Positions 1 through 13,350 of a DNA stretch of 64,000 nt are shown one piece after another. The translations under genes and the position numbers were made by a program. This DNA is from a virus: IMG/VR virus record IMGVR_UViG_3300045049_000234, positions 47,180 through 111,179 of that record; one strand, written 5' to 3'. The notes beneath the pieces were generated by a model. It saw only the letters and a list, made by a program, of their open reading frames with translations. It did not search any database and had not been told where the DNA came from. Each line of letters begins with the position of its first letter. Within the stretch, counting starts at the first letter, position 1.

Positions 1-1593
1 GTCGATCGACGCCTTGGAGTAGCCCGTGGTGTCGATCCCGAACAGCGGCACCGACGCCGGGACCGCGTCGGACACCGACGTGGCGCGCGGCGCGACCAGC
101 CCGGACCGGCGCACGCCGTACCCGCCGCTGTAGTACCCGCCGTACGCGAACGCCTGGCCGTCGGTGACCACGATTACCCGGTCGTGGCCCTTGAACGTGG
201 CCTCGATGGCGCCGATGGTCTGCGTGCCGTGGCCCACCTCGCCGATGCGCTTGGTGAACCGGTCGATCTCGCGCAGCATGCTGCCGCCCAGCGCGATGTC
301 GTGCTGGAACACGCCGTCCGCGTAGCCGTACAGGCTCACTTTGCCGCCGGTGCGGTACGCCAGCGCCACGCCGATCAGCGCGCCGATGTCCACGTGCCGG
401 ATCTGCGACTTGCCAGACACCGGGGACTGCATGGAGCTGGAGGTGTCCACCAGCACCAGCGTGCGCCCGTCCAGGAGCGGGATGTTCGCCGTGGCCGCTG
501 CCAGCGCCTGCTCCAGCGCGTGACCCCACCGCAGCGACGGTGCGGCCTTGTACGCCGACAGGAACCGGTACGGGAACTGCCGAGAGCGCGCCACTTCCGC
601 CGGGTCGGCGATCTTCGCCGCCACCTGCGCCGCGACCTTGTCAGAGACCTTCGCCTCGTCGAAGTTGCGCAGGTTGCGGATCAGCGCCATGTAGCCCATC
701 GACGGGATGATCGCCTCCCACGCGGCGCGGTCCATCGGACCCTGAAGCCAACCGGCCAGGATCTCCCACGTGATGCCCGCGTCGTTCAGACGCTGCGCCC
801 CGCCGTCGGCCAGCAGGACCGCACGGCGCTCCGCCACCGGCAGCGCCATCAGATCGCGGTTCGCGCGCAGGATGCGCAGCGACTCGGGAACGTCCAGCTC
901 CGGCTCGTGCGGCTTGGACACCACGTAGTCGAACAGGTCGTGCTGCCACGGCGCCTTGATGGTCTGCGCGGAGTCGTCGCGGTCGCCCGAGTGCGTCAGG
1001 TCCAGCACGCGGCGCCACGAGAAGCCGGGGTGCGCCACGTCGCCGTACTTGATGAAATTGCGCTCGTTGCCCATGCGGATCATGGCGTCGGCGATACCGC
1101 GCTTGAGCGGCTTGGGCAACGCCATCCCGTAGCGCGACGTCCAGTACGCCAAAAGCTCGCCGGGCTCGTCCGGGCGCTGGAGCGCGTCGCGCACGACGCT
1201 GCGCGCGGAGATGGTCGGCAGCGGGTACTGCGTGCCGGTGCGGCCGGTGCCCATCTCGTCGCGGCGCGCGTGGACGTACTCCGCCGCCGCGACGACCGAC
1301 GCCGAGCGCATCAGGCCCTCGCTGCGAAGCCACTTGATGAACCGCGCGGTCCAGTCGGGGTGCTGGACGGCGCACTGACGCACCAGGTTGCGGAACCGGA
1401 CGTCGCGGTCGCCCGCCTTCTCGTAGAACGTGTCCTCGCCGACCATGTTCGTCACGGCCAGCAGGAACAGATCGGACTGCGGGGTGCGGGTCCACGCGGC
1501 GCCGCCCTCGTGGGTGGTGGTGCGCTCGTCGGTGGTCCGGATGACGCCCGGCGCAGTGGTCTGCTTGCCGAGCTGCTTGGTGAACTTCGCCAC
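1..1593 (-). CDS. TROVE-domain Ro60/Rsr-like RNA-binding protein with C-terminal vWA domain (3' end outside window)
   Basis: My translation from GTG at 1593 (SD AGAGGA upstream): MAKFTKQLGKQ...THEGGAAWTRTPQSDLFLLAVTNMVGEDTFYE...LQRPDEPGELLAYW...LPKPLKRGIADA...MGYMALIRNLRNF...SRQFPYRFLSAY...TLVLVDTSSSM...VIVVTDGQ. These are typical TROVE and MIDAS motifs. Absent from the ORF track because there is no stop in the window. Confidence 0.93.
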   Translation of the reverse strand, partial: MAKFTKQLGKQTTAPGVIRTTDERTTTHEGGAAWTRTPQSDLFLLAVTNMVGEDTFYEKAGDRDVRFRNLVRQCAVQHPDWTARFIKWLRSEGLMRSASVVAAAEYVHARRDEMGTGRTGTQYPLPTISARSVVRDALQRPDEPGELLAYWTSRYGMALPKPLKRGIADAMIRMGNERNFIKYGDVAHPGFSWRRVLDLTHSGDRDDSAQTIKAPWQHDLFDYVVSKPHEPELDVPESLRILRANRDLMALPVAERRAVLLADGGAQRLNDAGITWEILAGWLQGPMDRAAWEAIIPSMGYMALIRNLRNFDEAKVSDKVAAQVAAKIADPAEVARSRQFPYRFLSAYKAAPSLRWGHALEQALAAATANIPLLDGRTLVLVDTSSSMQSPVSGKSQIRHVDIGALIGVALAYRTGGKVSLYGYADGVFQHDIALGGSMLREIDRFTKRIGEVGHGTQTIGAIEATFKGHDRVIVVTDGQAFAYGGYYSGGYGVRRSGLVAPRATSVSDAVPASVPLFGIDTTGYSKASID

Positions 1594-1642
1594 GGTCGGG
1601 TTCCTCTCTACGTGCGTGTGCTGTGCGGGAGGAACCGGCAGG

Positions 1643-1782
1643 GGTGACCCGAGATTGAAGCGACGGCGGCTGTTTTGACTGATGCTCTACCAAGTGAGCT
1701 ACCGAGGGTAAAGCCCCCCGGATTGGGATCGAACCAATAACCTTCAGTTCCGAAGTATCCGCCATCAGGGCACCGGGTCACC
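1643..1782 (-). ncRNA. Y-RNA-like unit 1 (YrlA-like, permuted tRNA domain)
   Basis: Terminal stem GGTGACCCG/CGGGTCACC; motifs CCGGTGCC, TACTTC, AATCTCGG; T-arm ATTGG-TTCGATC-CCAAT, then closed acceptor-like hairpin, then D-arm TAGCTCACTTGGTAGAGC. Confidence 0.85.
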
Positions 1783-1792
1783 GGTGCTGGAC

Positions 1793-1919
1793 CTCCCGAG
1801 GTTGGGGTGTGCGGGACTAAGTTGCCTTAGACCATCTCGGCCACACGCGGCGGACCGCGTGACAGGATTCGAACCTGCGTTCGTTTGCACGAAGTAAGTT
1901 CCGCACGGGGCACCGGGAG
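1793..1919 (-). ncRNA. Y-RNA-like unit 2
   Basis: Same three motifs; T-arm GCAGG-TTCGAAT-CCTGT, hairpin CACGCGG-TCCG-CCGCGTG, D-arm TGGCCGAGATGGTCTAAGGC; small TTCG-TGCAAA-CGAA hairpin. Confidence 0.85.
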
Positions 1920-1954
1920 ATGCCTTTACTGTCAGTGTTCAGTTGTCAATGGGG

Positions 1955-2100
1955 TCGCGCCCGAGGTTGAGTCGGTGATCGTTGTTCTCTGTTGTGCTGC
2001 CGTTACACCACACGCCCCAGGTGGGGGGCGCGCCGGATTCGAACCGGACCTCCGGTTCCCTAGACCGGTGAAGTAACGATCTCCTTGGCACCGGGCGCGA
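1955..2100 (-). ncRNA. Y-RNA-like unit 3
   Basis: Same motifs; anticodon-like arm CCGGT-CTAGGGA-ACCGG, T-arm CCGG-TTCGAAT-CCGG, closed acceptor-like hairpin, D-arm TGGTGTAACGGCAGCAC. Confidence 0.85.
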
Positions 2101-2109
2101 TGTCTGTGG

Positions 2110-2256
2110 GCCGTGTCCGAGATTGAGGTCGGACGATCGTGACGTTAGGTGCTCTGGGCCACTGAGCCACAGGGGACACAGTCCCCCGCCGGGATTCGAA
2201 CCCGGGTCACCCGCTTAAGAGGCGAAGTAACGATCATCCTGGGCACCGGACACGGC
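2110..2256 (-). ncRNA. Y-RNA-like unit 4
   Basis: Same motifs; anticodon-like arm TTCGC-CTCTTAA-GCGGG, T-arm CCGGG-TTCGAAT-CCCGG, closed acceptor hairpin, D-arm TGGCTCAGTGGCCCAGAGC. Confidence 0.85.
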
Positions 2257-2266
2257 ATCCGTTTAG

Positions 2267-2413
2267 TCCACCCCGAGGTTGAATCAGAGACCGGTATTCT
2301 TAAAGAAGGACTCGAACCTTCACCTCCGGCTTTTCAAAGCCAGCGTGCTGCCAATTACACCACTCGGCCATGAGTGGCCGAGGAAGTATCGGTATCAATG
2401 GCACCGGGATGGA
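2267..2413 (-). ncRNA. Y-RNA-like unit 5
   Basis: Same motifs; order is acceptor-like hairpin CTCGGCCA-CTCA-TGGCCGAG, D-arm, anticodon-like arm CTGGC-TTTGAAAA-GCCGG, T-arm GAAGG-TTCGAGT-CCTTC. Confidence 0.82.
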
Positions 2414-2421
2414 TGCCTGGC

Positions 2422-2533
2422 CCCTCCCGAGATTGAGGTGGCCGACGGAGAACGGGACTTGAACCCGCAGCGTTTCCTTGGAAGGGAAATTTCGAACCAT
2501 TCGAAGTAACCGTAGACCTGGGCACCGGGAGGG
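2422..2533 (-). ncRNA. Y-RNA-like unit 6
   Basis: Same motifs; D-like hairpin TTCG-AATGGTT-CGAA, anticodon arm TTTCC-CTTCCAA-GGAAA, T-arm GCGGG-TTCAAGT-CCCGT. Confidence 0.82.
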
Positions 2534-2542
2534 AATTCTATG

Positions 2543-2621
2543 GTGTCCCCGAGATTGAAAGCGGCGGCCGGTGTGTTTCCATTTGGAGTGAAGTAACCGA
2601 TTGCCTGGGCACCGGGGACAC
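2543..2621 (-). ncRNA. Y-RNA-like unit 7 (short)
   Basis: Same motifs; the only insert is a small hairpin TTCA-CTCCAAA-TGGA. Confidence 0.8.
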
Positions 2622-2627
2622 GTACGC

Positions 2628-2750
2628 GGCATTCCCGAGGTTCACGGTGGATCGACGACGGGGGTTCTCCGTCCCCACGCTCCGCGTGAGGGTTCCCCCT
2701 ATGGTGCACTGGTGGAGGAAGTATCGCCGGTCCGAGGCACCGGGAATGCC
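2628..2750 (-). ncRNA. Y-RNA-like unit 8 (non-tRNA insert)
   Basis: Terminal stem GGCATTCCCG/CGGGAATGCC and same motifs; the insert has hairpins CCCTCACGC-GGA-GCGTGGGG and GACGG-AGAACCC-CCGTC and no T-loop. Confidence 0.75.
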
Positions 2751-2774
2751 CACTGTTCAGTTATCAAGAAGCGC

Positions 2775-2854
2775 GTCCCCGAGATTAAGGGCGACGTCCG
2801 GAACGGGATTCAAATTTACAGTTTGAAGTAGCCGGTCGTCTGGGCACCGGGGAC
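2775..2854 (-). ncRNA. Y-RNA-like unit 9 (short)
   Basis: Same motifs; insert hairpin TTCAAA-CTGTAAA-TTTGAA. Confidence 0.8.
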
Positions 2855-2902
2855 AAAGTCGGTGCGTTTCGGCGGGGGTTGGGTTCCCGTTTCAACACGC
2901 AT

Positions 2903-2933
2903 AGCGTAGCACATGCGTTAGACGGTCACGCAA
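2903..2933 (-). promoter_or_regulatory. Putative promoter of the Y-RNA array/TROVE transcript
   Basis: Minus strand TTGCGT...CTAACGC..TGC-TACGCT: extended -10 plus the phage CTAAC spacer motif. Confidence 0.5.
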
Positions 2934-3458: not shown

Positions 3459-4504
3459 CGCGCCTCGGCCGGGATGATCAGCAGCTTGTCGCCGTCGTAC
3501 ATCTTGCGGTTCACAGACGTGGACTGCACGAAGATCGTGTACTCCGGGTTGATGTCCGGGCTCACCCGCGTGTCGATGTCCGGCAGCCCCAGGATGTCCC
3601 GCGCGCCGTCGCCGACGTACACGACGCCGGTCTTCTTCTCGTGGACGGCGATGCGCTTGGTGCGCTGGATCGTGACACGGCGCTTGAGTTCGTAGAAGGC
3701 CGCGCCGATCCGGTAGTCCATGCGCAACTGATCCACAACCCAGTCACGGATCTCCGCGTCCTCGGTCACCGTGGTCAGCGTGTAGGCGCTGCCAGGCAGC
3801 GGGGTGAGCGTGGAACGTACGGTGTCCCGGTTGACGGCGTCGATGCCGGTGGAGAAGATCGCCCGGCTGCCGCGCACGCCCTGCGCCCGGTTCGCCATGA
3901 ACCGGTCGGTGGCGGCGCGGATCGTGTTGCCGACCTCCCGCACACCGTGCGCGGACGTGGTGTCCCACACGGCGATGTTGTCGGCGGCGAACCCGAACCG
4001 CTTGGCCTCGAACACGCCCATCTGGTTCGGCACCATCACGGCCACCGTCCAGTTGTCCGGCAGTGCGCGCAGCCGCGCGGACAGGTGCGCGGAGGTGTGG
4101 ATGCGGCTGCGGTTCTCCTCGCCGTCGGTGATCACGTAGACCAGGAACGCATGGTCGCCGTAGATCTCCGGCGTCTTGGCCAGATCATCCAGCGCCGTCA
4201 TGGTCGCGTCGATCAGCGCCGTGTTGCGCTCGGCGCGGTAGTGCTCCGCGATCGAAGGCAGGCGCAGCACGTCCCGATCGTAGAACACGCATTCGGCGGC
4301 CTGTTTGACGCCGGGCACGGCCTCGTTGAACACGTAGACCGTCGCCCGCGTCTCCTGGTCCATCACAGTGGACCGTTCGGCCAGGTGGGACACCATGCCA
4401 TCCGTGACGGCCACCACGTCGCGGGCGAACCGGGACATGGACAGCGAGCCGTCCAGCACGATGGCGATGTGGTTGATGTAGCCCTGTGTGGGGTGTTTGT
4501 TCAT
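3455..4504 (-). CDS. vWA-domain protein
   Basis: IAIVLDGSLSM MIDAS, NTALIDA, VITDGEENRS. Confidence 0.85.
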   Translation of the reverse strand: MNKHPTQGYINHIAIVLDGSLSMSRFARDVVAVTDGMVSHLAERSTVMDQETRATVYVFNEAVPGVKQAAECVFYDRDVLRLPSIAEHYRAERNTALIDATMTALDDLAKTPEIYGDHAFLVYVITDGEENRSRIHTSAHLSARLRALPDNWTVAVMVPNQMGVFEAKRFGFAADNIAVWDTTSAHGVREVGNTIRAATDRFMANRAQGVRGSRAIFSTGIDAVNRDTVRSTLTPLPGSAYTLTTVTEDAEIRDWVVDQLRMDYRIGAAFYELKRRVTIQRTKRIAVHEKKTGVVYVGDGARDILGLPDIDTRVSPDINPEYTIFVQSTSVNRKMYDGDKLLIIPAEAR

Positions 4505-7844: not shown

Positions 7845-8531
7845 CTAGACTACGGCGTCCACGTTAGCGTTGTCAAGGGGATCGGCCTGCGAAGTCATCC
7901 GCATTCGCCTGCCCAGTTCGATCCATGCGTGCCGTGGCCACATCGTGCGGCACCCACGGCACTGGATCTTCTGCGCGTACGGGTCCGCCCACAGCGACGT
8001 CCCGCACACCATCCCGTCGTCCGCCGTCTGCGGGCACATCCCGATCATCCGTGACTCGCCGGGACCGTTGACCTGAACGCGGCACGCCGCCGCCCACTCC
8101 CGGATGTTCGCCGCGAACGCGTCCGCCTCGGCGTGCTCATCCGCCGCCCACGTCCAGTTGTTGCGCAGGAACGTCACCGCGCCGACCACCGACTGCTGCA
8201 CCGTCCCCCGGAACGGTCGCGCCGTCCATCCGAGCACCATGCGCCAGTCCGATTCCCAGTAGTGCAGGACGCTGACGATGCCGCCGTGCGCCCGCAGGCT
8301 CAGCGGCTCCAGCCGAACCGGCACCGGCGATCCCACGCGCCCCCCGCCGGACACGCGGGCGTCGGTGCGCATCCCCCACGACGGTTCCAGCATCTCCCCC
8401 AACGCCTCGTACAGCGCCGGTATCGCCGTCAGGTCGGCGTCCACGTGCGCGATGCACAGGCCGCACACGCGGCGGGTGGACGATCGGCGGCAGATCATGC
8501 ACTGGACGGACACGGGCTGGTCAGTGAGCAC
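7845..8531 (-). CDS. Phage protein with N- and C-terminal Cys (Zn-binding) motifs
   Basis: CMIC...CGLC and CPQ...CG...CRGC; protein-like composition. Confidence 0.7.
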   Translation of the reverse strand: MLTDQPVSVQCMICRRSSTRRVCGLCIAHVDADLTAIPALYEALGEMLEPSWGMRTDARVSGGGRVGSPVPVRLEPLSLRAHGGIVSVLHYWESDWRMVLGWTARPFRGTVQQSVVGAVTFLRNNWTWAADEHAEADAFAANIREWAAACRVQVNGPGESRMIGMCPQTADDGMVCGTSLWADPYAQKIQCRGCRTMWPRHAWIELGRRMRMTSQADPLDNANVDAVV

Positions 8532-8571
8532 GGCGCCCCCTCATGGTGTTTTTTATGAGGGTAGCGCCGTG

Positions 8572-9697
8572 CATCCATGCCTTGCGCAACGATGCCGAGG
8601 CCAGCGCCGCCATGCCGGGCTCGGCCGTGCCGTGCCACGTCGTGCGGGCAACCACCGACTAGCCGGTGACCACCCGCACGACACGGAACCATGCGTTGCC
8701 AAGCCGCGCGCTGCGCTGCCGAGCCGTTACCTAGCCGGGCCAAGTACCGCCATGCGAAGCCGGACCATGCCGGGCACTGCGTAGCGCCGCCTCGCGTGCG
8801 CGCCGGGGCCTCGAACCCCGGTGACATCCGGTCGCGCGCCATCCATGCCGTGCCGAGACAGGCCGCGCGTTGCACTGCCTAGCCCGGCCGTCCACCGTCC
8901 GTGCCTTGCCGTACCTCGCCATGCGCCGCCACGCCGGACTGAGCCCAGTTCTGCCGAGCATGGGAACCTTGCCGCGCCTCGCATTGCCAAGCCGAGCGAT
9001 GCCCGGTCTGGCCACGCGTCGCCCCGCCGCGACCCCACGGCGGGGTTGTCCTTGCGTTGCCGAGCCACGCCACGCCTAACCAGGCCACGCCGCGCACAGC
9101 CGCGCCCCGACCCCAGAGCGCGGGTATCCGTGCCTTGCCCCGCGTAGTCATGCGTCACCTTGCCACACGGTGCGGCGCCAAGCCATGCATTGCCCGGCCG
9201 GGTCGTGCCGTGCGCAGCTATGCCGAGCGCAGCGCAGCCCAGGGACGGCACGCGGTGGTCCCGCGTACCAACCTTGGGTTGCGCCCTCGCCGCTCGGCCA
9301 TACCCCGCCTAGCATGGCCGAGCGGCGCCGTGCGGCGTCCATGCCTTGCCTGGCGTTGCCACGCCAGTGCCGCGCTCAGCCGAGCGATGCCGGGGCCAGC
9401 CCTGCCATCGCCTCTGCCCAGCCAAGACAGCGACACACCGGTGATGTGCCACCGCCCCGGCTGGGTCCGTGCCTCGCCGCGCGGAGCCAAACCGGGCCAA
9501 ACGTTGCCGGGTCGTGCCCCACCATGCCGCGACCCCACGACATGACGTCCATGCCTAGCCACGCCAGACCTCGCACAGCATCGCCTAGCGTCGCCAGGTC
9601 CTTGCCAAGCCGGGTCGCGCCGCGCTACGTCCAGCGTTGCCGTGCGCTGCCGCGCCGGGCGTTGCGTTGCCACGCCATCGCATCGCGAAGCCAGGCC
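8572..9697 (-). repeat. Non-coding array of 5-nt periodic (G/C/T)GY-NN repeats in discrete tracts separated by linkers/hairpins (candidate guide-RNA array)
   Basis: Example 9106-9047: GGCGC GGCTG TGCGC GGCGT GGCCT GGTTA GGCGT GGCGT GGCTC GGCAA CGCAA GGACA. There are 23 in-register pentamers at 9239-9125. All six frames give only low-complexity A/R/G/W/P peptides. Confidence 0.9.
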
Positions 9698-9700
9698 ACG

Positions 9701-10267
9701 TTACGCCGCCGCATCCTCGTCCGGTGCGATGCCCATGGCGCGCATCCGGCGTTCGATGTCAGCGAGACGGCGATCCGTCGCCTCGCTGTGGTTGCGCGTC
9801 TCCGTGCGCAGGTCGTCCAGCGTCTTCTGCATCCGGGCCGTCTTGGACGCCTGCCGCCGGTTGATCTCCATCTGATAGGCGAACGCGGTGGCGACGGTTT
9901 CGAACGCGGCGCGCACCGCCGGGCTTTCGCCGGACAGATCGACGTTGACCGCCTTCGAGTAGGCGCGCTGAAGCTGCCGACCCGCCTTGCGGCCGTGGCG
10001 CCGCGCCAGCCCGAGCTGTGCGACGGCGTCCACGACGACATAGCCGACGCCGCGTACGGCGTCCACGGCGCGCTTCTCGTCCTCCTCGAACCGCCGCGCG
10101 GCGTCCCGGAACGCGACCCGCAGCGTCTGCCGGTCGCGCACAGGGTCCAGCTCCAGCGCTTCGGCCATCTCCTCGAACGTGATCAGATCGCCGATGGCCT
10201 TGGTCCGCAGGAGGCCGTACATCACCTTCCAACGGGCGGTGTCGCCGATGGGGGCGAACGGGCTCAT
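9701..10267 (-). CDS. Putative winged-HTH plus coiled-coil protein, translationally coupled to the RAMP-like gene
   Basis: ITFEEMAEALELD...AVRGVGYVVV resembles a wHTH helix and wing; helical C-terminus; ATGA overlap at 10264-10267. Confidence 0.7.
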   Translation of the reverse strand: MSPFAPIGDTARWKVMYGLLRTKAIGDLITFEEMAEALELDPVRDRQTLRVAFRDAARRFEEDEKRAVDAVRGVGYVVVDAVAQLGLARRHGRKAGRQLQRAYSKAVNVDLSGESPAVRAAFETVATAFAYQMEINRRQASKTARMQKTLDDLRTETRNHSEATDRRLADIERRMRAMGIAPDEDAAA

Positions 10268-10848
10268 GCGTTGTCCGGGATGACGGTGACGCTGCCCGCG
10301 AACCGGCCGTACCGGGGGCGCCAGTTGCCCAGGCCGATCAGGCTCCCGGCGATGTCAACGATCTGTTCGAAGTCGCCGAGGTCGATGATCTGCGTGTCCA
10401 CGTAGATGATCGCGGAGGTGGCCCAGTCATGGAAGATCGGCCGCGTGCGGATCACGCGGGCGTTGTTGACCTTCACGGACGCCTGGTGCCGGAACGACTC
10501 GTCGGCCCACAACGCCTCCGGGTCGCGCGGACCCTTGTAGACCAGCGGATTGACGTTGGACAGGACGATGACGCCCGTCTGCACCTTGGGTCCGAGCTTG
10601 CGCTTGCGCGCGGCGTCCAGCAGCGCGCGATAGATGTTGTCGCCCGGCATGTACGGACCCTGCTCCGAGTCGTGGTACAGGCCGCCCAGGAACTCGGCGT
10701 GTGCCATTTCCGCGTAGTCGTCGTCGGTCTTGGACCGCTTGGCGCTGATCTTCTTGATGGACTTCGCGATCGGGTCCAGCGGATTGGACAGCCGCGCGTT
10801 GTGTACCAGCAACGGGCACGTGCCCGTAACATCCAACTTGATATCCAT
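10264..10848 (-). CDS. Stand-alone RAMP/Cas7-like (RRM-fold) protein, 194 aa
   Basis: Start ATG at 10848 after GAGGAACCC. N-terminal strand IKLDVTGTCPLLVHN, PYMPGDNIYRALLDAA (compare Cas7/Csm3 P.IPGSS.KG.LR), RVIRTRPIFHDW, and a C-terminal Gly-rich loop AGSLIGLGNWRPRYGRF. Confidence 0.78.
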   Translation of the reverse strand: MDIKLDVTGTCPLLVHNARLSNPLDPIAKSIKKISAKRSKTDDDYAEMAHAEFLGGLYHDSEQGPYMPGDNIYRALLDAARKRKLGPKVQTGVIVLSNVNPLVYKGPRDPEALWADESFRHQASVKVNNARVIRTRPIFHDWATSAIIYVDTQIIDLGDFEQIVDIAGSLIGLGNWRPRYGRFAGSVTVIPDNA

Positions 10849-10864
10849 GGGTTCCTCTCGATGA

Positions 10865-10975
10865 TGACCGTGCCTCGCGTTGCCAAACCATGCCGGGCGG
10901 TGCCGCGCCTGGCATCGCCGTGCCTCGCGTTGCATTGCGCCGCGACGCCAAACGCAACCGTTGCCACGCCACGCG
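10865..10975 (-). repeat. Leader tract of (G/C/T)GY-NN pentamers between promoter and RBS of the RAMP-like gene
   Basis: GGCGT CGCGG CGCAA TGCAA CGCGA GGCAC GGCGA TGCCA GGCGC GGCAC CGCCC GGCAT GGTTT GGCAA CGCGA GGCAC GGTCA (17 in register), plus a few upstream. Confidence 0.88.
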
Positions 10976-10987
10976 CTGATGTTGACC

Positions 10988-11017
10988 ACACTATCACCGG
11001 TCATGCCATAAATACAA
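10988..11017 (-). promoter_or_regulatory. Putative promoter of the RAMP/repeat locus
   Basis: TTGTAT-18 nt-TAGTGT with TGn extension, in a locally AT-rich patch. Confidence 0.55.
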
Positions 11018-11097: not shown

Positions 11098-11952
11098 TTA
11101 CTCTGCGTCGGTGTCGGGTTCCTCGACGTCTTCGACCACATCGCCGTCCACGATGTCGGCGGCGTCCGTCACTTCGGTGGCGTCGGTGCGCGGGTTGACG
11201 TCCAACCGCACGCCGCCGTCCACGGCCAGTCCGCGCACGTACTGCGTGGACCGGGGCGCCGTCTTGAGTACATCGATAAGCGTTGTTTTCAACGCCATGG
11301 CATCAAAGTGATCACGCCACGGGCCGACGATCTCGCCATTCTTGCGGGCCATCGCGAACTTGTCGCGGTGTTCCTCGCAGTCCTCGCGTGTCCACGCGGA
11401 GAACAGCGGCCGGGGACCGCCCACCAGATGAACCACCGAGTAGTAATCGGTCACCGGTCCGCGAGCGGCGCGGGGCGCCCGCGACGGGATGTGCTCGATA
11501 CGGCTGTCCGTTCCGTACCTAACGTCGAAGAAATCACTTTCGTAACGCTTGTGCGCCTCGATCGACACCACGCGGTCCGACCGGTACGCCAGGTTGATCA
11601 ATCCCGGATAGCCGATGATCAAGGTGGCTTCCATGCGCCCCTTGTTGCGCATCGGCAGCAGCCACGCCTCGCCCAGCACCGCCGGGCGCAGACCGAGCTG
11701 TGCGCACGTCATCAGGCCGCCCAGCACGGACATCGGGTCGCACTCCGCCAGGCGCGGCGTCTTGCGCAGGACCGTCATGGCGTCGCGGGCAAGCTGGACG
11801 GCGTCGTGGCCGCGCGGCATGGCCCGCTCGAAATCCGGGATCATCTTCCTGATCTCGTCGGCCAGGGACCGCCGCCCCTCGTCCGGCGTGCGCGGGGTGT
11901 TCGGCGCCAGTTCGCCGCGCTGCGTGCGCATCCGGTTCGCCAGGTCGTTCAT
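11098..11952 (-). CDS. recT: RecT-family single-strand annealing protein
   Basis: LAECDPMSVLGGLMTCAQLGLRP..LGEAWLLP, LIIGYPGLINLAYRS, GPWRDHFDAMALKT. Confidence 0.93.
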   Translation of the reverse strand: MNDLANRMRTQRGELAPNTPRTPDEGRRSLADEIRKMIPDFERAMPRGHDAVQLARDAMTVLRKTPRLAECDPMSVLGGLMTCAQLGLRPAVLGEAWLLPMRNKGRMEATLIIGYPGLINLAYRSDRVVSIEAHKRYESDFFDVRYGTDSRIEHIPSRAPRAARGPVTDYYSVVHLVGGPRPLFSAWTREDCEEHRDKFAMARKNGEIVGPWRDHFDAMALKTTLIDVLKTAPRSTQYVRGLAVDGGVRLDVNPRTDATEVTDAADIVDGDVVEDVEEPDTDAE

Positions 11953-12345: not shown

Positions 12346-13350
12346 TCACGTCATGGTTGGGTTGAACCGGCGTGACCGGTAGGCGGTGTAGATGTCGGGG
12401 TGTTCCTTGGCGAACCGGTCCTTGTCGAACTCCACGACGGTGCGCGTGTAGGCGTCGTACAGGCCCGGCTTGTCCTCGCGCAGAGCGTTGACGTTCATCG
12501 GGCCGGTGTTGCGCCATGTGACCACCGGTTTGTCGTCCACGAGCCCCGCATGCGCGGAGCCGAGCGCGGCGCACACGCGCGCCTGCGCGGCGTCCTGCGC
12601 CGCCTTCAGCGCTTTGATCTGTTCGCCCAGCGACCGGTATTCGGCCAGGTCGTACAGCGCGTCGCGGTCCAACACCACGGCCTCGTCAAGGTCCGCCATC
12701 GGATGCAGGCGCTTGATCAGCTCCGGGTCGGCGGCGTGCATCCCGAACTCCGGCGGCACCTGCGGCAGGACGTGCTGATGCCAGAACTCGTCCTCGATCG
12801 CGGTCAGGTCGCTGATCAGCGACTCGTCGCGGTCCACCCGCCGCACCACCAGTTCCACGCCGACCAGCGCGGCAATCCACACGTGGGTGCGGCCGGTGAC
12901 CTTCAGCCCGTGCTGGCCCTGTACCGCCGCGCGGTCCGTCACCGCGCCGTCGGCCCACTCCGAGGCCATGCGGAAGCTCGTGGTCTTCATCTCCAGCAGC
13001 CCGCCGTCCTCGGTCAGGCCGTCGGGCGTGTAGAGCTGCCAGGGGTTCTCACGCGACTGGAGCAGCCCGCACGTGGTCACGCGTACGCCGGTCACTTCGG
13101 TGAACCACTCGCGGATCATCGGCTCGGCGCGGTGGCCGAACGCCATCGCCGGAGTGTAAGGCATCTCCGGAAGCCGCGACGTCTTGTCCAGGTAGACCTT
13201 GAGGCGGGATGAGAACGGGTCCAGACCGGCCACACCGGGCGCGTCCGATCCGCCGATCCCCTGCTGCCGTGCGCGCAGCCACATGTCCCGTGGGGCGCCG
13301 TGGGGCAGCAGCTCCTCACACTCGTCCGTGGAGTTCACACCGGGGGTCAT
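12346..13350 (-). CDS. YqaJ-like viral recombinase exonuclease (RecE partner)
   Basis: WLRARQQGIGGSDA, FGHRAEP, TPDG...LLEMKT, Q.QH.L.VTG. Confidence 0.93.
   Translation of the reverse strand: MTPGVNSTDECEELLPHGAPRDMWLRARQQGIGGSDAPGVAGLDPFSSRLKVYLDKTSRLPEMPYTPAMAFGHRAEPMIREWFTEVTGVRVTTCGLLQSRENPWQLYTPDGLTEDGGLLEMKTTSFRMASEWADGAVTDRAAVQGQHGLKVTGRTHVWIAALVGVELVVRRVDRDESLISDLTAIEDEFWHQHVLPQVPPEFGMHAADPELIKRLHPMADLDEAVVLDRDALYDLAEYRSLGEQIKALKAAQDAAQARVCAALGSAHAGLVDDKPVVTWRNTGPMNVNALREDKPGLYDAYTRTVVEFDKDRFAKEHPDIYTAYRSRRFNPTMT

What the first reader, a model, noticed from the sequence alone, without database searches (positions are those of the whole stretch)
8572..11017. Candidate non-CRISPR RNA-guided system: lone RAMP/Cas7-like gene and wHTH partner embedded in GGY-NN pentamer arrays
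Seen: one minus-strand unit made of a promoter (about 11017-10988), a pentamer tract (10975-10865), a 194-aa gene, a coupled 188-aa gene and about 1.1 kb of pentamer tracts. Each pentamer has a near-constant trinucleotide (mostly GGC; also CGC, TGC, GGT) followed by two freely varying bases. No cas1/2/3/5/6/10 genes or CRISPR repeats are in the window. Established: the protein motifs (TG..PL.., P.MPG..I...L, C-terminal GLG.WR..YGRF Gly loop) are RAMP/Cas7-like, and Cas7 proteins polymerise along guide RNA with a fixed nucleotide step. Inference: each subunit binds one GGY and displays the NN, so the interspersed dinucleotides form a non-contiguous guide, probably for silencing rival phage or host DNA/RNA since no nuclease is adjacent. 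From memory this resembles a recently reported phage architecture (called VIPR); I cannot verify that here.
Basis: partly seen in the sequence, partly recalled or inferred. Interest (0 to 1): 0.97.

Follow-up and report, generated by a model that had tools for sequence, protein, structure and literature searches.

The report
Phage VIPR guide-RNA silencing locus
This is a real example of the VIPR system first described in 2026: a phage-encoded Cas7-like protein, a DNA-binding partner and an array of guide RNAs made of GGY-NN five-base repeats. It sits in a complete 111-kb high-GC phage genome, it belongs to a known family rather than a new kind of system, and I could not find what its guides target.

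Summary
Period-5 signal occurs only at 8.5-9.7 kb and 10.8-11.0 kb of the window, and nowhere else in the 111-kb genome. I parsed 232 pentamers. Position 2 is G in 95%, position 3 is C or T in 97%, and positions 4-5 are close to uniform.

The 194-aa protein matches the solved SUSP1 Vipr protein over its full length (PDB 36pp, E 1e-36). Its model's best PDB fold matches are Csm3/Cas7. The overlapping 188-aa gene models as a winged helix plus coiled coil and is homologous to the SUSP1-type vap1. Cas1 and CRISPR-like repeats are absent.

The locus is therefore a type II-like VIPR system (bioRxiv 10.64898/2026.04.26.720920 and .720927).

Local features:
- About 2 upstream and 12-14 downstream guide units.
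- A shared 3' end motif, SGCA(A/C/T)GG(A/T).
- Some units are followed by variable hairpins; others abut the next unit with a 1-nt phase slip.
- Asn replaces the G-loop Asp that reads G1 in SUSP1.

No natural target was found. There are no self-targets, and the only external matches are at chance level. Expression could not be tested.

This scan's notes already hold 363 findings that mention VIPR, in at least 280 genomes. Verdict: a new member of a known kind, of moderate interest.

The parts
10988..11017 (-). Putative promoter: TTGTAT, 18-nt spacer, TAGTGT, in an AT-rich island
   Evidence: Read from the sequence. It does not reach the sigma-70 scan threshold. Inferred only.
10865..10975 (-). 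Upstream vrRNA tract of 3+19 pentamers. It is probably two guides, each ending in the same 15-nt string CAACGCGAGGCACGG (U1a to about 10915, U1b to 10865). The second ends 16 nt before the vipr start codon.
   Evidence: Lag-5 autocorrelation is 0.54.
10264..10848 (-). vipr: 194-aa RAMP (Cas7-like) protein
   Evidence: Matches PDB 36pp_D 'SUSP1 Vipr protein' at E 1.1e-36, residues 4-186. Matches phrog_4652 at E 1e-57. The AF2 model has pLDDT 93. Foldseek top hits are Csm3/Cas7.
9701..10267 (-). vap (vap1-like): 188 aa, a winged helix at about residues 12-79 followed by a long coiled coil
   Evidence: ATGA overlap with vipr. Blastp to the partner genes of Gordonia phage MakoManhole ('DNA binding protein') and Mycobacterium phage LittleE gives E about 1e-14. 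Hhalign to the Felixounavirus gene next to a SUSP1-type vipr gives probability 86%, E 5e-6. The AF2 model has pLDDT 81. Foldseek hits are weak and are winged-helix regulators (GntR, MarR, OmpR/PhoB among others).
8572..9697 (-). Downstream vrRNA array: about 1.13 kb, roughly 180 pentamers in 12-14 guide-sized tracts of 7-16 units
   Evidence: The 3' end motif SGCA(A/C/T)GG(A/T) occurs 12 times here, starting at 9606, 9555, 9473, 9345, 9134, 9056, 8973, 8905, 8849, 8771, 8695 and 8581. It occurs 24 times on the rest of that strand of the 111-kb genome.
9417..9465 (-). Hairpin separator after the guide that ends at 9464 (23-bp stem)
   Evidence: Fold energy -41.9 kcal/mol, z -4.7.
9022..9045 (-). 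Hairpin separator after the guide that ends at 9047 (10-bp stem)
   Evidence: z -2.2.
8640..8681 (-). Hairpin separator after the guide that ends at about 8686 (18-bp stem)
   Evidence: Fold energy -33.6 kcal/mol, z -3.9.
8527..8575 (-). Terminal hairpin closing the array (17-bp stem). It overlaps the GTG start (8531) of the next gene.
   Evidence: Fold energy -32.6 kcal/mol, z -6.2. No U-tail follows it, so a terminator role is not shown.

Best explanation
This is a type II-like VIPR (Viral Interference Programmable Repeat) locus of a complete 111-kb high-GC tailed phage.

Proposed mechanism, by homology with the SUSP1 system. The minus-strand unit is transcribed from an upstream AT-rich promoter. 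The pentamer tracts are cut into vrRNAs of about 7-16 GGY-NN units. Vipr protomers polymerise along each vrRNA, one per repeat. They bury G1, G2 and Y3 and present the NN dinucleotides. [quoted passage not shown] Binding blocks transcription of a competing mobile element or another target gene. The winged-helix Vap enhances the effect.

Shown here: protein homology and fold, repeat statistics, locus architecture, viral context and absence of self-targets. Inferred by homology: transcription, processing, filament assembly, DNA binding and silencing. Unknown: the targets and the host.
For: 1. Vipr identity. Phmmer matches the solved 'SUSP1 Vipr protein' (36pp_D) at E 1.1e-36 over residues 4-186. 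The AF2 model has pLDDT 93. Foldseek gives Csm3/Cas7 as top hits at probability 1.0.
2. RNA and DNA contact residues named in 10.64898/2026.04.26.720927 are conserved: H17->H16, K33->K32, R138->R136, W178->W176, R179->R177.
3. Repeats. There are 232 units of GGY-NN type with near-uniform NN. They occur only at this locus in the genome.
4. NN composition. Over the 163 units of the defined guide tracts, NN is 44.5% GC in a 68% GC genome. It fits codon positions 1-2 far better than positions 2-3 or 3-1. This is what guides that skip the wobble base of high-GC genes would show, although a uniform model fits equally well.
5. Partner gene. It is homologous to the vap of SUSP1-type and actinophage loci and has a winged-helix model.
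6. Relatives. There are 505 related loci in IMG/VR and 70 in prokaryote genomes. GGCNNGGC words are enriched in their flanks. The median locus has 350 nt of period-5 DNA and this one has 1,500 nt, the second largest of 155.
7. No self-targets above shuffled controls, as the published work reports for its own systems (paper section read).
8. No Cas1 and no CRISPR array. The genome is a complete phage with portal, tape measure and tail genes.
Against: No expression, processing or binding data could be obtained.

No natural target was found for any guide.

The G-loop Asp that hydrogen-bonds G1 in SUSP1 (D177, whose alanine mutant loses silencing) is Asn175 here. One third of units do not start with G. 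The Asn is shared by the four closest homologues in the 39-sequence alignment, which argues for a working variant rather than decay.

The invariant pseudoknot tail of the SUSP1 clade is not present in that form.
Confidence: 0.9

Rival explanations
1. It is a decayed or inactive VIPR remnant. The genes and repeats are inherited, but the system no longer assembles because the G1-reading Asp is lost and many scaffold triplets are degenerate (CGC, TGC, GAC, GGA).
For: D177 is replaced by N175. 33% of units lack G at position 1, and some tracts are broken by 1-nt slips.
Against: Both ORFs are intact and translationally coupled. All other contact residues are kept. The Asn is shared by a subclade of 5 of the 39 aligned proteins. 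G2 (95%) and Y3 (97%) are strictly kept over 232 units, and NN stays far below genomic GC content, which neutral decay in a 68% GC genome would erase. The published work also notes frequent internal degeneracy of vrRNAs.
Confidence: 0.05
2. The tracts act as DNA, not RNA. They would be iteron-like binding arrays for the winged-helix protein, for example a partition or replication site, with the RAMP protein having an unrelated role.
For: A winged-helix and coiled-coil protein is encoded next to a repeat-rich non-coding stretch. No RNA data exist for this locus.
Against: The repeats are strand-specific: strict runs occur only on the gene strand. They have the 5-nt GGY-NN grammar that was shown to be RNA bound by the homologous protein in SUSP1 (papers). 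Hairpins and a shared 3' motif punctuate them into RNA-sized units.
Confidence: 0.02
3. It is a VIPR locus, but its guides are aimed at host genes (defence, CRISPR or restriction genes) rather than at rival phages or satellites.
For: Targets are unknown. Follow-up notes from this scan on other VIPR loci propose such targets. These notes are mostly unchecked, and a later check left part of one of them standing and part fallen.
Against: Nothing here points to it. One guide searched with up to 3 mismatches in 401 Actinomycetes genomes gave no match. The only cellular hit, in a rhomboid protease gene, is at chance level.
Confidence: 0.2

Closest known systems
Type II VIPR of Escherichia phage SUSP1 and the Pseudomonas fulva prophage (bioRxiv 10.64898/2026.04.26.720920, .720927 and 10.64898/2026.10.15.759431)
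   Same: Homologous Vipr: 37% identity to a SUSP1-type protein, E 1e-36 to the solved chain. Homologous DNA-binding vap directly downstream. GGY-NN vrRNA tracts both upstream and downstream of the gene pair. Phage-borne, with no cas genes. No self-targets.
   Different: About 14-16 guide units, against 4 in SUSP1. The third scaffold base is mostly C here; in a SUSP1-type Felixounavirus locus it is mostly T. 23% of units begin with C. Asn replaces the G1-reading Asp. There is no invariant pseudoknot tail: the guides share a repeat-derived 3' motif (GGCAA-SGCAY-GGA) and are followed either by hairpins of unrelated sequence or directly by the next guide after a 1-nt phase slip. The genome is high-GC and the host is probably an actinobacterium.
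'Staggered' VIPR arrays (fig. S18 legend of 10.64898/2026.04.26.720920)
   Same: Several tracts here abut with a 1-nt shift, so the end of one guide marks the start of the next, for example at 9596, 9366 and 9335.
   Different: Only about half of the junctions are of this kind. The others carry hairpins of 10-23 bp. I had the figure legend only, so no closer comparison was possible.
Class 1 CRISPR-Cas backbone proteins (Cas7, Csm3, Cmr4)
   Same: RRM core, glycine-rich loop and thumb. The structural matches are Csm3 and type VII Cas7 chains. One subunit binds per fixed step of guide RNA.
   Different: There is no CRISPR array, no Cas1 and no other cas genes. The step is 5 nt, with 3 bases buried and 2 displayed, rather than 6 nt with 1 flipped. 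The guide is non-contiguous. Identity over the structural alignments with Csm3/Cas7 chains is 10-14%.

Membership tests
VIPR system | Vipr protein: a stand-alone RAMP with RRM core, G-loop and thumb, homologous to published Vipr | tested here: met
   E 1.1e-36 to PDB 36pp 'SUSP1 Vipr protein'. Csm3/Cas7 are the top fold matches. The G-loop sequence GLGNWRPRYGRF is present.
VIPR system | Tandem YNNGG (GGY/NN) repeats of at least 4 units flanking vipr, with conserved GGY and hypervariable NN | tested here: met
   232 units. G2 is 95% and Y3 is 97%. All 16 dinucleotides occur at NN.
VIPR system | Minimal locus of vipr plus one vap, with no CRISPR array or cas genes | tested here: met
   Two overlapping genes. 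No Cas1 in the genome. No spaced repeats in the window. Other cas families were not searched one by one.
VIPR system | vrRNAs are expressed, processed to about 100 nt and co-purify with Vipr | not testable with these tools
VIPR system | Guides match natural double-stranded DNA targets by the 1-nt skip rule at 80% or more of NN positions | tested here: inconclusive
   No target above chance in the phage's own genome, 154 related loci, IMG/VR (5 guides), JGI metagenomes (2 guides) or 401 Actinomycetes genomes (1 guide). The public-collection searches needed exact cores of 8-10 units, so their sensitivity is low.
VIPR system | No self-targeting | tested here: met
   The best self matches equal those of guides with shuffled unit order.
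VIPR type II (SUSP1 / P. fulva) | vap1-type DNA-binding accessory gene | tested here: met
   Hhalign probability 86%, E 5e-6 to the gene next to a vipr that matches the solved SUSP1 Vipr chain at E 1.5e-127 over its full length. Winged-helix model. The paper's type table was not available, so the type call is by similarity only.
VIPR type II (SUSP1 / P. fulva) | Invariant 3' tail with a conserved fold (a pseudoknot in the SUSP1 clade) | tested here: not met
   Sequences after the guide ends differ from unit to unit. Four fold into strong hairpins, two into weaker hairpins, and the others are absent. What the guides share is the terminal motif SGCA(A/C/T)GG(A/T), which is only about 2-fold enriched in related loci. 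The paper describes the tail for the SUSP1 clade and calls array architecture variable, so this does not exclude membership of the wider family.
CRISPR-Cas class 1 | CRISPR repeat-spacer array plus adaptation and effector cas genes | tested here: not met

The most novel reading that the evidence does not exclude
The actinophage branch represented here may be a distinct VIPR sub-architecture. Its guides would be defined by a repeat-derived 3' motif (GGCAA-SGCAY-GGA) and a recurring 5' GACCC-GGC motif. They would be released at variable hairpins or at 1-nt staggered junctions instead of at an invariant pseudoknot tail. They would be read by a Vipr whose G-loop carries Asn in place of the G1-reading Asp and tolerates C or T at scaffold position 1. 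If so, guide biogenesis and scaffold recognition differ from the SUSP1 model.
Probability: 0.3. Interest if true: 0.45.

Novelty: new member of a known kind. Interest (0 to 1): 0.35.

Why it matters
VIPR is a newly described RNA-guided DNA-recognition system with a gapped code, and its authors propose it as an ancestor of the CRISPR RAMPs. This locus adds a large, well-punctuated array from a complete high-GC phage.

It could serve three purposes:
- Testing how guides are processed when there is no conserved tail.
- Testing whether an Asn variant of the G-loop relaxes recognition of the first scaffold base.
- Once the host is known, finding what an actinophage silences with about 15 guides.

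It does not change the picture of the family, and the scan's notes already mention VIPR in several hundred findings.

Tried and rejected
1. Asp-to-Asn as the cause of relaxed G1. My parse gives about 65% G at position 1 in loci with Asp as well, so there is no correlation. That parse is noisy in high-GC flanks.

2. Guide D11 against the vap of a related locus (L027). The match is 16 of 18, but the skipped base falls on codon position 1 rather than the wobble, and it is expected by chance across about 17 guides.

3. Guide U1b against phrog_458 'protease'. Eighteen of 20 positions match in wobble register the conserved motif [ED]QATPIFK[ED]L in three high-GC viral contigs that are only 30-35% identical to one another. 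I rejected it as a probable chance match for three reasons. The hit count (14) equals that of the other guides. No other guide converges on these contigs. The family's hits among isolated phages are phages of Gram-negative hosts, mostly Proteobacteria, such as the epsilon15-like podophages, whereas this phage's nearest Vipr relatives are actinobacterial. I keep it as a weak lead.

4. Guide D8 against a rhomboid protease gene in a 72% GC metagenome contig. Nine of nine core units match in wobble register, but this is one of 9 hits at the chance level and the next two units do not match.

5. Guide D12 against a 100-kb high-GC viral contig (L199). The flanks do not extend and no other guide hits it.

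6. Other guide searches. The guide D14 core gave only chance hits in IMG/VR and nothing in metagenomes. The guide D7b core gave chance hits only.

7. Host identification. No close phage was found by DNA or by the portal protein, and no cutinase-type LysB. The host remains unknown.

8. Rfam. No hammerhead or other family matches in the array.

9. The shared 3' motif as a clade-wide feature. It is only about 2-fold enriched in 44 related loci, so it is specific to this phage or its closest kin.

Full report
**What is there**

The finding lies on the minus strand. Reading 5' to 3' it contains:
- An AT-rich island with TTGTAT, an 18-nt spacer and TAGTGT (11017-10988).
- A pentamer tract (10975-10865).
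- A purine-rich ribosome site and a 194-aa gene (10848-10264).
- A 188-aa gene that overlaps it by ATGA (10267-9701).
- 1.13 kb of pentamer tracts (9697-8572).
- A strong hairpin (8575-8527) that overlaps the start of the next gene.

**Is the period-5 signal real?**

Yes. Lag-5, 10, 15 and 20 autocorrelation is 0.42-0.54 in the tracts, against about 0.25 at other lags. The two genes show the usual period 3.

Over the whole 111,179-bp genome, the signal passes threshold only at this locus. Strict runs occur only on the gene strand, apart from one 6-unit run elsewhere.

A dynamic-programming parse gives 232 units:

| Position | Composition |
|---|---|
| 1 | G 67%, C 23% |
| 2 | G 95% |
| 3 | C 81%, T 16% |
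| 4 and 5 | every base at 16-31%; all 16 dinucleotides used |

Over the 163 units of the defined guide tracts, the NN positions are 44.5% GC in a 68% GC genome. Their dinucleotide usage fits codon positions 1-2 of this phage's genes about as well as a uniform model does. It fits much better than codon positions 2-3, positions 3-1 or genomic dinucleotides. This is what guides that skip the GC-rich wobble base would look like. It is not proof.

**The proteins**

The 194-aa protein has no Pfam family. Other evidence identifies it:
- It belongs to phrog_4652.
- It matches the solved 'SUSP1 Vipr protein' (PDB 36pp) at E 1.1e-36 over residues 4-186.
- An AlphaFold2 model built from 39 homologues has mean pLDDT 93.
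- The model's best PDB matches are Csm3 and type VII Cas7 chains (probability 1.0, TM about 0.5, 10-14% identity).

The cryo-EM paper names residues that contact RNA or DNA. Here they map as follows:

| SUSP1 residue | Here | Status |
|---|---|---|
| H17 | H16 | kept |
| K33 | K32 | kept |
| R138 | R136 | kept |
| W178 | W176 | kept |
| R179 | R177 | kept |
| D177 (reads G1) | N175 | changed |
| E71 / M72 | D70 / N71 | changed |
| C173 | I171 | changed |

The Asn is shared by the four closest homologues among the 39 aligned proteins.

The 188-aa protein also has no Pfam family. It is homologous to the gene downstream of vipr in Gordonia phage MakoManhole (annotated 'DNA binding protein') and in Mycobacterium phage LittleE (E about 1e-14).

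By profile comparison it also matches the gene downstream of vipr in Escherichia phage HY02 (probability 86%, E 5e-6). The Vipr of HY02 matches the solved SUSP1 chain at E 1.5e-127 over its full length.

Its model (pLDDT 81) is a winged helix at about residues 12-79 followed by long helices. Foldseek gives only weak hits (E 4e-3 to 6e-2), and these are winged-helix regulators, among them GntR, MarR and OmpR/PhoB.

**What it is**

Three 2026 preprints describe VIPR systems. According to them:
- A VIPR system has a stand-alone RAMP (Vipr), an accessory gene (vap) and vrRNAs of 9-16 GGY-NN repeats. In the SUSP1 system one vrRNA lies upstream of the gene pair and three downstream.
- One Vipr protomer binds each repeat. 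It buries GGY and displays NN.
- The filament binds double-stranded DNA that reads xNN-xNN-..., and it silences transcription.
- Natural targets are satellites, prophages and other VIPR loci.

This locus meets every sequence-level criterion, so I file it as a type II-like member. The type is judged by similarity only, because the paper's type tables are not held.

The family is large:
- 505 related loci in IMG/VR and 70 in prokaryote genomes. The genomes include Streptomyces, Streptosporangium, Mycobacterium, Gordonia, Methylobacterium and Bradyrhizobium.
- 130 hits in isolated phages, mostly Felixounavirus relatives of Enterobacteria, plus Gordonia, Mycobacterium and Pseudomonas phages.
- GGCNNGGC words are enriched next to vipr-vap in the high-GC relatives.

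**Local anatomy of the array**

*Guide ends.* The motif SGCA(A/C/T)GG(A/T) occurs 12 times in the 1.13-kb array and twice upstream. It occurs 24 times on the rest of that strand of the genome. The last two NN before it are usually AA and AC/AT, so the guides share a repeat-derived 3' end, GGCAA-SGCAY-GGA.

*Upstream tract.* It carries the same 15-nt ending twice, so it probably encodes two guides.

*5' motif.* A GACCC-GGC motif recurs at 9616, 9518, 9209, 9013 and 8646. It may mark 5' ends.

*Hairpins.* After six ends there is a hairpin, and the sequences are unrelated. The stems are 23, 18, 17 and three of 10 bp. The z-scores of the four best are -4.7, -3.9, -6.2 and -2.2.

*Other junctions.* At several of the others the next tract starts after a 1-nt phase slip. 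This resembles the 'staggered' arrays mentioned in the first paper.

*Comparison with other loci.* Rfam finds no ribozyme. The invariant pseudoknot tail of the SUSP1 clade is not present in that form. The shared end motif is only about 2-fold enriched in 44 related loci, so it is local to this phage or its near kin.

*Array size.* The locus has 1,500 nt of period-5 DNA. That is second of 155 loci, whose median is 350 nt. The array is large but not unique.

**Context**

The genome is a complete virus record with direct terminal repeats. It encodes portal, tape measure and tail proteins.

A RecT gene lies just upstream of the locus.

No close relative was found among isolated phages, and there is no cutinase-type LysB. 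The host is unknown. The nearest Vipr homologues come from Actinomycetes and their phages.

**Targets**

I applied the published 1-nt skip scoring with shuffled-order controls. The phage's own genome and 154 related loci were scored with mismatches allowed, and one guide was searched with up to 3 mismatches in 401 Actinomycetes genomes. The IMG/VR and metagenome searches needed exact cores of 8-10 units.

| Searched | Result |
|---|---|
| Own genome, including vipr-vap | no guide beats chance |
| 154 related VIPR loci | nothing above chance |
| IMG/VR, 5 guides | chance-level hit counts; flanks do not extend |
| JGI metagenomes, 2 guides | chance-level hit counts; flanks do not extend |
| 401 Actinomycetes genomes, 1 guide | no match |

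Two matches lie in perfect wobble register.
- Guide U1b matches the conserved [ED]QATPIFK[ED]L motif of phrog_458 proteases in three divergent high-GC viral contigs. I treat it as probable chance: the hit number is ordinary, no other guide converges on these contigs, and the family's hits among isolated phages are phages of Gram-negative hosts, mostly Proteobacteria.
- Guide D8 matches a rhomboid protease gene in a 72% GC contig. I also treat this as chance.

The targets remain unknown. Because the public-collection searches required exact cores, their sensitivity was low.

**Verdict**

The system is already in print, and this scan's notes already hold 363 findings that mention VIPR, in at least 280 genomes.

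It is a new member of a known kind, with some local variations: the end motif, the mixed hairpin and staggered junctions, the Asn G-loop variant and the large array. These would be worth a small-RNA experiment.

Noticed in passing
window 1-2933 (minus strand): A Ro60/TROVE-like gene. An 85-nt stretch at 657-741 is 89.5% identical to the 'Ro-like RNA binding protein' gene of Gordonia phage VanLee. Earlier first-reader notes on this genome describe nine Y-RNA-like units upstream of it, with tRNA-like anticodon loops. I did not examine them.
   Followed up: no
window 11098-11952 (minus) and 12346-13350 (minus): A RecT-family annealing protein (Pfam RecT, E 3.4e-38) lies directly upstream of the VIPR locus on the same strand. 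A 334-aa ORF lies further upstream and I did not examine it. The VIPR locus therefore sits inside the early recombination region.
   Followed up: partly
window 7845-8531 (minus): The gene after the array encodes a Cys-rich 228-aa protein (phrog_1467, E 2e-21, with a weak 'DNA binding protein' phrog match). Its GTG start lies inside the terminal hairpin of the array, so its translation could be coupled to the fate of the array transcript.
   Followed up: no
L155:13418-17836 (genome 13418-17836, outside the window): A 1472-aa ORF combines a portal domain (phrog_2662, E 3e-54) with a C-terminal ParB-like match (phrog_1033, E 4.5e-7), which is an unusually long portal fusion.
   Followed up: no
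L179:444-473, L167:6425-6454, L168 (minus strand) 4301-4330: The NN string of upstream guide U1b spells, in wobble register, the motif [ED]QATPIFK[ED] of phrog_458 'protease' genes in three viral contigs that are only 30-35% identical to each other. I judged it a probable chance match, but it is the one lead worth re-testing once the host is known.
   Followed up: yes
L085 (MAG contig labelled uncultured Streptantibioticus, 4,073 bp) and L007: These related loci carry period-5 arrays as long as or nearly as long as this one (1,550 and 1,375 nt), so large arrays recur in the high-GC branch.
   Followed up: partly
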